15,540 nt of DNA from Escherichia coli (GTDB lineage: Bacteria; Pseudomonadota; Gammaproteobacteria; Enterobacterales; Enterobacteriaceae): NCBI RefSeq assembly GCF_003334335.1, contig NZ_QOWQ01000059.1; one strand, written 5' to 3'. Position numbers and translations under genes: made by a program. Shown here in pieces: positions 13,261-13,470 of the stretch. Each line of letters begins with the position of its first letter. Within the stretch, counting starts at the first letter, position 1. The notes under the pieces are model-generated. The model was not told where the DNA came from and searched no databases. It saw nothing but the letters and a program-made list of their open reading frames with translations.

Positions 13261-13470
13261 GCACGACTGCCGGATGCGGCGTGAACGCCTTATCCGGCCT
13301 ACACTTCGCCCGTAAGCCGTAGGCCTGATAAGACGCGCAAAGCGTCGCATCAGGCATGGCGCACGACTGCCGGATGCGGCGTGAACGCCTTATCCGGTCT
13401 ACACTTCGCCCATAAACCGTAGGCCTGATAAGACGCGCATAGCGTCGCATCAGGCATCTGCGCACGACTT
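13261..13470. repeat. BIME: two tandem ~100-bp units, each holding two inverted REP (palindromic unit) sequences
   Basis: GCACGACTGCCGGATGCGGCGTGAACGCCTTATCCGG(C/T)CTAC...GTAGGCCTGATAAGACGCGC...GCGTCGCATCAGGC occurs twice with period 100 (units start at 13261 and 13361) and a handful of substitutions. Sits between convergent frmB and yaiL. Matches the canonical E. coli REP consensus. Confidence 0.85.

What the first reader, a model, noticed from the sequence alone, without database searches (positions are those of the whole stretch)
13261..13470. Tandemly duplicated 100-bp BIME between frmB and yaiL, with a second REP cluster upstream of mhpT
Two near-identical 100-bp units, each with a REP pair in inverted orientation, differ at a few positions (for example CGGCCTAC versus CGGTCTAC, CCCGTAAGCC versus CCCATAAACC). 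A second REP array occupies 15412..15540. REP/BIME arrays are known targets of DNA gyrase and IHF and act as mRNA stabilisers or terminators between convergent genes. The copy number here is a likely strain-variable character.
Basis: partly seen in the sequence, partly recalled or inferred. Interest (0 to 1): 0.3.

Follow-up and report, generated by a model that had tools for sequence, protein, structure and literature searches.

The report
Ordinary tandem REP (BIME-2) array
This is a well-known kind of short palindromic repeat (two tandem 100-bp Y–Z2 REP pairs) sitting between the converging E. coli genes frmB and yaiL; it is real, and its copy number differs between strains, but it is ordinary.

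Summary
Window 13261-13469 holds 2.1 tandem copies of a 100-bp unit (94% matches). Each unit is a Y-type REP on the + strand and a Z2-type REP on the - strand. That makes it a two-unit BIME-2 in the 223-bp spacer between frmB/fghA and yaiL. The sequence is 100% identical to E. coli K-12 MG1655.

The second cluster is also real, but the window cuts it. It is the annotated REP31 array between mhpE and mhpT, about 436 bp, of which the window holds about the first 117 bp.

The copy number varies between strains. In a systematic sample of 58 complete genomes, 33 had 1 unit, 24 had 2 and 1 had 3. Another 98 of 5,426 genomes carry IS621 inserted in the Z2 REP of this BIME.

Two refinements:
- There is no IHF site here. 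IHF sites belong to BIME-1.
- Published Term-seq data argue against a symmetric terminator. One frmB-sense 3' end lies 3 nt past the last Z2 stem. yaiL-sense RNA reads through into antisense frmB, where Rho terminates it.

Already known; low interest.

The parts
13261..13469 (.). Whole BIME-2 array: [GCACGAC linker, Y REP, 16-nt tail-to-tail linker, Z2 REP] x 2, then a third copy of the ...GCGCACGACT linker motif
   Evidence: TRF period 100, 2.1 copies, 94% matches. Direct-repeat family D1 at 96% identity; D2 (GCGCACGACT) at 13359-13368 and 13460-13469.
13268..13302 (+). Y-type REP (unit 1). The hairpin starts 13 nt after the frmB stop codon.
   Evidence: 34/35 identity to the Y query printed in PMC11208160. 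Hairpin -21.3 kcal/mol. Stop codon at 13253-13255 followed by 12 nt (TAATAGCACGAC).
13303..13318 (.). Tail-to-tail linker ACTTCGCCCGTAAGCC (unit 1)
13319..13356 (-). Z2-type REP (unit 1). Carries an exact IS621 target ATCAGGCCTAC at 13319-13329.
   Evidence: 36/37 identity to the published Z2 query. Hairpin -21.3 kcal/mol. IS621 target match.
13357..13367 (.). Head-to-head linker TGGCGCACGAC between unit 1 and unit 2
   Evidence: It aligns to the linker of the Rfam naRNA4 model.
13368..13402 (+). Y-type REP (unit 2), with C to T in the tail (GGTCTAC)
   Evidence: 33/35 identity to the Y query. Hairpin -19.6 kcal/mol.
13403..13418 (.). Tail-to-tail linker ACTTCGCCCATAAACC (unit 2)
13419..13456 (-). 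Z2-type REP (unit 2). Exact IS621 target at 13419-13429.
   Evidence: 36/37 identity to Z2. Hairpin -21.3 kcal/mol. Target match.
13322..13399 (-). Head-to-head Y-linker-Z2 pair that scores as Rfam RF02564 (naRNA4). It is in sense orientation in yaiL-sense RNA.
   Evidence: 79.6 bits against a gathering score of 59.5, E = 4e-13.
13465..13465 (+). Published Term-seq 3' end of frmB-sense RNA (MG1655 377325, - strand; LB OD600 2.0). It lies 3 nt past an extended last-Z2 stem.
   Evidence: Adams et al. 2021, supplementary file 1. Coordinate map verified. The fold of 13405-13465 is -26.3 kcal/mol, z = -4.7, and pairs 13418-13462.
13094..13096 (-). Published Term-seq 3' ends of yaiL-sense RNA (MG1655 377694/377696, + strand; all three growth conditions). 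They lie about 165 nt beyond the array, antisense inside frmB.
15424..15540 (.). First ~117 bp of the annotated REP31 BIME-2 array between mhpE and mhpT (MG1655 374931-375366 = window 15424-15859). Contains Y-like (-) 15425-15458, Z2 (+) 15470-15506 and Y (-) 15517-15540, the last cut by the window end.
   Evidence: Rfam naRNA4 hit at 15428-15503, 62.8 bits. Full array in L001 5313-5770, period 101, four further naRNA4-model hits. The name REP31 and its coordinates come from the supplement of the 2026 preprint.

Best explanation
The feature is a two-unit BIME-2, that is four REP palindromes alternating Y(+) and Z2(-). It fills the spacer between the convergent genes frmB (fghA) and yaiL of E. 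coli. It belongs to the several-hundred-copy REP/BIME family and is part of the standard K-12 sequence. Shown here: its anatomy, its type, its presence at the same site in other Escherichia lineages, and its 1-3 unit polymorphism. Inferred mechanism: it acts as a 3'-UTR element when transcribed. In frmRAB mRNA the four stable hairpins (about -20 kcal/mol each) block 3'-to-5' exonucleases. This is consistent with one mapped frmB-sense 3' end that lies 3 nt past the last Z2 stem. The first Y hairpin begins only 13 nt after the frmB stop codon. [quoted passage not shown] The array is not an efficient terminator for yaiL-sense transcription, which reads through and is ended by Rho inside antisense frmB. 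As DNA it belongs to the BIME-2 class that gyrase binds and cleaves preferentially; this was not tested at this locus. Its Z2 tails are natural targets of the bridge-RNA recombinase IS621. Unit number probably changes by unequal recombination or slippage between the 100-bp repeats, or by TnpA-REP activity. That last step is inferred.
For: Anatomy and typing: using the REP query sequences printed in PMC11208160. The Rfam REP325-derived model aligns Y, linker and Z2. BIME-2 is defined as y + z2 with short linkers in tandem copies, variable between strains (PMC3333891). Identity to K-12 and gene context. No hairpin-plus-U-tract terminator in 13100-13650. Term-seq: a frmB-sense 3' end at window 13465, yaiL-sense 3' ends at 13094/13096, and a Rho-dependent region at MG1655 378012(+) = window 12778, Rho score 5.8, significance 1.7e-10. 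Terminal hairpin fold. Stop-to-REP distance is 12-13 nt for frmB and 22 nt for yaiL; the under-16-nt rule is summarised in PMC12306157. Gyrase cleavage sites are over-represented in BIME-2, mainly in y REPs (PMC6379681). Copy-number polymorphism. Unit-level evidence for loss or gain: UMNF18 has flanks identical to K-12, and its single unit equals K-12 unit 2 exactly. A REP pair sits at the same site in E. albertii and in two other Escherichia lineages. IS621 lies in the Z2 GTAG|GCC site in 98 of 5,426 genomes.
Against: No locus-specific experiment shows that the hairpins change frmB or yaiL expression. The frmB-sense 3' end was curated in only one of three growth conditions. Read counts on the two strands of that dataset are on different scales. 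Reads in repeats can be mis-assigned. The 2026 preprint finds REP effects context-dependent and finds no general half-life difference for REP-bearing mRNAs. Across 16 unit variants there are no compensatory changes, and several changes break stem pairs. That pattern is compatible with neutral decay of a selfish repeat. Gyrase cleavage at this particular BIME could not be verified.
Confidence: 0.9

Rival explanations
1. A selfish or neutral repeat with no local function: a REP doublet deposited and amplified by the REP-associated tyrosine transposase (TnpA-REP/RAYT), or by slippage, and tolerated only because the spacer between convergent genes is free of constraints.
For: Units decay by one-sided, stem-breaking changes with no compensatory pairs, for example GGCATGAT and CCGCCTAC in the O157-type unit. 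Unit number drifts between 1, 2 and 3 even among strains with identical flanks. TnpA-REP cleaves and recombines BIMEs in vitro, and models exist for BIME amplification.
Against: A REP pair has stayed at this exact site, in the same orientation, from E. albertii to E. coli. None of the 58 sampled genomes has zero units. A mapped RNA 3' end coincides with the last hairpin. This rival is not exclusive of the best explanation: a selfish origin and a mild local effect can both hold.
Confidence: 0.35
2. A symmetric bidirectional transcription terminator that insulates frmB and yaiL from each other.
For: The position between convergent genes. REPs lie within 78 of 306 predicted bidirectional terminators, and convergent pairs with REPs are more highly expressed. 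The frmB-sense 3' end lies at the array edge, 14 nt before the yaiL stop codon.
Against: No U-tract terminator is present. yaiL-sense 3' ends map about 165 nt beyond the array in all three conditions. A Rho-dependent termination region lies about 480 nt further into antisense frmB, so that direction reads through. A 3' end next to a hairpin can equally be an exonuclease stop.
Confidence: 0.15
3. A gene for a nucleoid-associated small RNA of the naRNA4 type, which binds HU and helps condense the chromosome.
For: Rfam RF02564 matches above its gathering score at 13322-13399 (-), 79.6 bits. The original report describes naRNA4 as a Y-linker-Z2 RNA bound by HU.
Against: The Rfam model is in effect a profile of any head-to-head Y-Z2 REP pair. 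It also hits five positions in REP31 and scores on both strands. The 2026 preprint reports that REP325/naRNA4 does not measurably compact the nucleoid and acts locally as a 3'-UTR element. No promoter is evident: the single weak -35/-10 match is at chance level.
Confidence: 0.03
4. An IHF-binding BIME-1 (RIB/RIP element).
Against: The Z REPs are Z2, not Z1 (alignment score 33 against 17-19). The linkers are 16 and 11 nt, not the long L motif. No WATCAANNNNTTR match with up to 1 mismatch lies inside 13261-13470.
Confidence: 0.01
5. A protein-coding ORF: 13154-13465, - strand, 103 aa, GTG start.
For: It appears in the mechanical ORF list.
Against: It is built from REP palindromes plus antisense frmB. 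It is not annotated in any RefSeq record examined. Unit gain and loss changes its length in strains.
Confidence: 0.01

Closest known systems
BIME-2 arrays of E. coli, e.g. REP325 (yjdM-yjdN, 12 REPs), and the sucC-sucB and tldD-yhdP BIME-2s
   Same: Alternating Y and Z2 REPs in inverted orientation. [quoted passage not shown] A ~100-bp unit repeated in tandem. Extragenic 3'-UTR position. Unit number variable between strains.
   Different: Short (2 units against 6 in REP325). It lies between convergent genes, whereas REP325 lies between tandem genes. No locus-specific functional data exist.
REP31, the mhpE-mhpT BIME-2 array whose first part is at 15424-15540
   Same: Same Y/Z2 composition and nearly the same head-to-head linker (GTCGTGCGCAGA against the reverse complement of TCTGCGCACGAC), with a 101-bp period.
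   Different: About 9 REPs. It lies between tandem genes, upstream of mhpT, so it is expected to attenuate read-through from mhpE rather than to cap two converging mRNAs. Its tail-to-tail linker is different (AAATTCCCGCGCCATCC).
Rfam RF02564 naRNA4 (CssrE)
   Same: Sequence and two-hairpin structure match above the gathering score.
   Different: The match reflects REP family membership, not a distinct sRNA gene. The proposed nucleoid role is itself now disputed.
BIME-1 / RIB / RIP elements
   Same: Also an inverted REP pair in a 3' intergenic region.
   Different: BIME-1 uses Z1 + Y with a long L linker carrying an IHF site, and occurs as single copies. Here the REPs are Z2, the linkers are short, there is no IHF consensus and the unit is duplicated in tandem.
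REP-stabilised 3' ends and REPs close to stop codons (malE-malF paradigm; Liang, Rudd and Deutscher 2015, as summarised in PMC12306157)
   Same: Stable hairpins immediately 3' of a coding region. An RNA 3' end lies a few nt past a REP stem. [quoted passage not shown]
   Different: Not tested experimentally for frmB. The mapped end lies after the fourth REP, not the first.

Membership tests
REP / palindromic unit (PU) | A ~35-38-nt imperfect palindrome matching the Y, Z1 or Z2 consensus | tested here: met
   Y 34/35 and 33/35; Z2 36/37 twice, against the sequences printed in PMC11208160.
REP / palindromic unit (PU) | Conserved GTAG/CTAC tetranucleotide at the foot of the stem, and an internal stem mismatch | tested here: met
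   CCTAC or TCTAC tails at 13298-13302 and 13398-13402. GTAGG at 13319-13323 and 13419-13423. Every hairpin fold has the one-position bulge.
REP / palindromic unit (PU) | Extragenic location and high copy number in the genome | tested here: met
   It lies between the frmB stop (13255) and the yaiL stop (13479). A 551-nt query containing it finds a median of 34 places per E. coli genome, a lower bound because of the cap on matching pieces.
BIME-2 | Y and Z2 REPs alternating in inverted orientation | tested here: met
   Y(+), Z2(-), Y(+), Z2(-).
BIME-2 | Short linkers and tandem repetition of the unit; number variable between strains | tested here: met
   Linkers of 16 and 11 nt; 2.1 copies. 1, 2 or 3 units among strains.
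BIME-2 | Linkers correspond to the named S / s / l / r motifs of Bachellier et al. | not tested
   The papers that print those motif sequences were not held in the library.
BIME-2 | Preferential binding and cleavage by DNA gyrase in vivo | not testable with these tools
   Established only at class level. The Topo-seq supplement held as text does not mention frmB, yaiL or mhpT.
BIME-1 / RIB / RIP | Z1 + Y with a long L linker carrying an IHF site | tested here: not met
   The REPs are Z2, not Z1. No IHF consensus with up to 1 mismatch in 13261-13470.
Rfam RF02564 naRNA4 | Covariance-model score at or above the gathering score (59.5 bits) | tested here: met
   79.6 bits at 13322-13399 (-); 62.8 bits at 15428-15503 (+).
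Rfam RF02564 naRNA4 | A discrete HU-bound RNA with a role in nucleoid condensation | not testable with these tools
   No expression or binding data for this locus. The role is disputed for REP325 itself.
Intrinsic (Rho-independent) terminator | GC-rich hairpin followed by a U tract | tested here: not met
   0 terminator-like sites in 13100-13650 on either strand.
[quoted passage not shown] | REP begins within 15 nt of the upstream gene's stop codon | tested here: met
   frmB: 12 nt to the consensus start and 13 nt to the first paired base. yaiL: 22 nt, not met. The rule is taken from PMC12306157. The functional consequence was not tested.
Natural IS621 target site | The 11-nt target ATCAGGCCTAC with a CT core, and actual insertions there | tested here: met
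   Exact matches at 13319-13329 (-) and 13419-13429 (-). IS621 lies between GTAG and GCC of these Z2 REPs in 98 of 5,426 genomes. Target sequence from PMC11208160.

The most novel reading that the evidence does not exclude
The array behaves as a one-way RNA barrier. It caps frmRAB mRNA at its far edge but lets yaiL transcription run about 480 nt into antisense frmB before Rho stops it. If so, the 1/2/3-unit polymorphism (and IS621 insertion) would tune FrmB output between strains. Two routes would be involved: ribosome stalling at the stop-proximal Y hairpin and the amount of antisense read-through. That would make a common BIME copy-number variant a cis-regulatory allele for formaldehyde detoxification.
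Probability: 0.08. Interest if true: 0.35.

Novelty: already known. Interest (0 to 1): 0.1.

Why it matters
It matters little beyond correct annotation. The call keeps a REP array from being mistaken for an ORF, an sRNA gene (the Rfam naRNA4 hit) or an IHF site. It documents that this spacer is a hypervariable marker: 1-3 units, and occasionally IS621. If REP copy number does tune neighbouring genes, as recent work on REP325 proposes, this short, naturally polymorphic array is a convenient test case. It lies next to an inducible operon (frmRAB), and natural 1-, 2- and 3-unit alleles and Term-seq landmarks are already in hand.

Tried and rejected
- **IHF site:** a consensus scan found none inside the array, and the count over the whole window is at chance level.
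- **Intrinsic terminator:** none on either strand.
- **ORF 13154-13465 (-):** rejected as a REP artefact.
- **naRNA4 sRNA gene:** the Rfam hit is real but only restates REP membership.
- **Gyrase cleavage at this locus:** the Topo-seq supplement held as text has no frmB, yaiL or mhpT entries.
- **Original papers:** Liang et al. 2015 and Gilson et al. 1991 are not held. The under-16-nt rule is cited second-hand. The named linker motifs were not checked.
- **The array's name in the MG1655 annotation:** REP31 is confirmed for the mhpE-mhpT array. 'REP32' was not found in the supplement, which was cut when stored, so the name stays unverified. The RefSeq MG1655 record in this collection lists no repeat features here.
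- **Covariation across 16 unit variants:** 0 compensatory pairs. RNAalifold chose the alternative long-range Y:Z2 pairing, so the test says nothing about structure.
- **Literature search for frmB/yaiL terminators:** nothing relevant in main texts.
- **Exact population frequencies:** BLAST summaries do not give array lengths for all 5,426 genomes. Only a systematic sample of 60 was read.

Full report
**What is in the sequence**

Tandem Repeats Finder reports one long-period array in the window: 13261-13469, period 100, 2.1 copies, 94% matches, no indels. The repeat finder gives the same two copies, 13261-13357 and 13361-13457, 96% identical. It also finds 14-nt inverted-repeat arms inside each half unit.

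The two units differ at seven positions in a fixed register.

ORF listing and RefSeq annotation place the array between the stop codon of frmB/fghA (12422-13255, +) and the stop codon of yaiL (13479-14018, -). mhpT lies at 14120-15331 (-).

Window 12790-15540 is base-for-base identical to MG1655 375250-378000 reverse-complemented. The coordinate map is therefore window p = 390790 - MG1655 x.

**What kind of repeat it is**

Each unit has two palindromes. I aligned them to the three REP query sequences printed in the methods of PMC11208160. The + strand palindromes (13268-13302, 13368-13402) are Y type, at 34/35 and 33/35. The - strand palindromes (13319-13356, 13419-13456) are Z2 type, at 36/37 each. 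Alignment scores are about twice those for the other two types.

Each folds into the canonical bulged hairpin of -19.6 to -21.3 kcal/mol.

The Rfam covariance model RF02564 was built from the Y-linker-Z2 repeats of REP325. It matches 13322-13399 on the - strand at 79.6 bits against a gathering score of 59.5, and it aligns Y, linker and Z2 column by column.

PMC3333891 defines BIME-2 as y + z2, short linkers and multiple tandem copies, variable between strains. This array fits that definition as a two-unit BIME-2. The layout is: linker GCACGAC, Y, a 16-nt tail-to-tail linker, Z2, an 11-nt head-to-head linker, Y, a 16-nt linker, Z2, then the linker motif once more.

It is not a BIME-1. The Z REPs are not Z1, there is no long L linker, and no IHF consensus lies inside the array even with one mismatch.

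**The second cluster**

REPs at 15425-15458 (-, degenerate Y), 15470-15506 (+, Z2) and 15517-15540 (-, Y, cut) are real.

In a K-12 record the array continues for about 320 bp beyond the window end. In total it holds about nine REPs with a 101-bp period and gives five Rfam hits.

A supplement of the 2026 REP preprint names it REP31, MG1655 374931-375366, between the tandem genes mhpE and mhpT. The frmB-yaiL array is presumably the next numbered REP in that annotation, but I could not verify the name.

**Strain variation**

I used a 500-nt query made only of the unique flanks and read 60 records taken at even steps down the ranking of 5,426 genomes. The array length was:
- about 109-121 bp (one unit) in 33 records;
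- about 209-213 bp (two units) in 24 records;
- 311 bp (three units) in one record;
- split by a larger insertion in two records.

Fetched examples confirm the 1-, 2- and 3-unit states and show that the units themselves are mosaic.

Strain UMNF18 has flanks identical to K-12, and its single unit equals K-12 unit 2 exactly. One unit was therefore lost or gained recently within that lineage.

No sampled genome lacked the element.

A degenerate-codon scan of one genome per species found the same frmB-yaiL arrangement in three other Escherichia lineages:
- E. albertii has a single Y-like/Z1-like REP pair.
- A divergent 'E. coli' representative has one Y/Z2 pair with a 7-nt linker.
- Escherichia sp. 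E1V33 has two units.

REP occupancy of this spacer is therefore older than E. coli. The tandem state is labile.

**Function: what is shown and what is inferred**

There is no hairpin-plus-U-tract terminator on either strand.

- A curated frmB-sense 3' end lies at MG1655 377325(-), which is window 13465. It was seen in LB at OD600 2.0 only.
- yaiL-sense 3' ends lie at 377694/377696(+), which are window 13096/13094. They were seen in all three conditions and lie about 165 nt beyond the array, inside antisense frmB.
- A bicyclomycin-sensitive (Rho-dependent) termination region lies at 378012(+), which is window 12778, with Rho score 5.8 and significance 1.7e-10.

Folding the last 61 nt of the frmB-sense RNA gives an extended Z2 stem pairing 13418-13462 (-26.3 kcal/mol, z = -4.7). 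Only 3 unpaired nt remain at the 3' end. That is the geometry expected of an exonuclease-resistant end.

I therefore infer two things. The array caps and protects frmRAB mRNA after read-through of all four REPs. It is at best a weak terminator for yaiL-sense transcription.

Caveats apply. Read counts on the two strands of that dataset are on different scales. The frmB-sense end appears in one condition only. Repeats invite mapping errors, although the Z2 loop and the linker are locus-specific.

The first Y hairpin begins 12-13 nt after the frmB stop codon. This is inside the under-16-nt window in which REPs were reported to stall terminating ribosomes and reduce translation (summarised in PMC12306157). 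For yaiL the distance is 22 nt. The translational effect is an inference from position only.

Gyrase targeting is a class-level property of BIME-2, mainly of the y REPs (PMC6379681). It could not be checked for this locus.

The 2026 preprint supports a local role for REPs as terminators and stabilisers. It also finds the effects context-dependent and sees no general half-life difference.

Across 16 unit variants all stem changes are one-sided or disruptive and none is compensatory. A largely neutral, selfish-repeat reading therefore remains viable alongside a mild 3'-UTR role.

**Side finding: IS621**

The two 'split' records carry IS621, the bridge-RNA recombinase element. It is inserted exactly between GTAG and GCC of the Z2 REP. 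This is the published natural target ATCAGGCCTAC, which occurs exactly at 13319-13329 (-), 13419-13429 (-) and 15496-15506 (+).

A junction query finds this frmB-side insertion in 98 of 5,426 genomes. The insertion sits in the first or the second unit and in different unit types, so it arose more than once.

Two genomes have an IS621 in each of the two units, 1,379 bp apart. The unit-specific differences are retained, which indicates two separate insertions rather than a duplication.

**Verdict**

The element is a textbook BIME-2 in the reference K-12 sequence, and its variability is a known property of the class. The useful corrections are these:
- IHF does not apply here.
- The array is not a symmetric terminator.
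- The second array is truncated by the window.
- The Rfam naRNA4 hit should not be read as an sRNA gene.

Novelty: already known. Interest: low.

Noticed in passing
L004 4300-7030 (E. coli AR_0128); equivalent to window 13319-13329 and 13419-13429: IS621 (the IS110-family bridge-RNA recombinase element, 1,279 bp) is inserted between GTAG and GCC of the Z2 REP of this very BIME in 98 of 5,426 complete genomes. Two genomes (AR_0128, AR_0119) carry one copy in each of the two units, 1,379 bp apart, with the unit-specific SNPs retained. That indicates two independent insertions.
   Followed up: yes
L010 (E. coli O104:H4 FDAARGOS_349), second unit; equivalent to window 13419-13425: The Z2 tail reads CCGTAGATACTGATAAG instead of CCGTAGGCCTGATAAG. 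The extra ATA followed by CTG equals the first six bases of the IS621 left end (ATACTG...). It looks like a footprint of an imprecise IS621 loss through CTG microhomology. This is a hypothesis, not shown.
   Followed up: partly
L006 (strain ECNB21-M121) and L018 (Escherichia sp. E1V33), tail-to-tail linker: An 11-nt longer linker variant, ...CCATAAACCGTAG|CAGGCCGTAGGCATGAT. It joins a K-12-type Y plus linker to an O157-type linker plus Z2 right after a GTAG. It looks like an unequal recombination or cleavage-rejoining product between two unit types.
   Followed up: partly
window 13094-13096 (-) and 12778 (-): Published Term-seq and bicyclomycin data place yaiL-sense 3' ends and a Rho-dependent termination region inside antisense frmB. 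yaiL transcription therefore produces an antisense RNA over the last ~160-480 nt of frmB.
   Followed up: partly
window 13253-13261: frmB ends with all three stop codons in tandem and in frame (TGA TAA TAG). Some strains have TAA TAA TAG instead (L003, L007).
   Followed up: no
window 15541 onward (L001 5442-5770): REP31 continues about 320 bp past the window end. It holds about nine REPs with a 101-bp period and ends about 40 bp from the mhpE stop codon. Its near edge is 93 bp upstream of the mhpT start codon.
   Followed up: yes
L016 1262-1380 (E. albertii NBRC 107761, reverse-complemented): The same frmB-yaiL spacer holds a single REP pair of different make-up: a Y head with a Z-type tail (TTATCAGGCCTAC), and a short Z1-like partner. 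REP occupancy of the site therefore predates E. coli, while REP type has turned over.
   Followed up: partly
window about 10768-10776: A C9 homopolymer lies in the yaiO-frmR intergenic region. One K-12 derivative assembly (CETR3G40) has C10 there. This is either a slippage-prone tract or an assembly error.
   Followed up: no
window 13154-13465 (-): A 103-aa GTG ORF runs through the REP array into antisense frmB. It is a typical REP-generated spurious ORF and is not annotated in RefSeq.
   Followed up: yes
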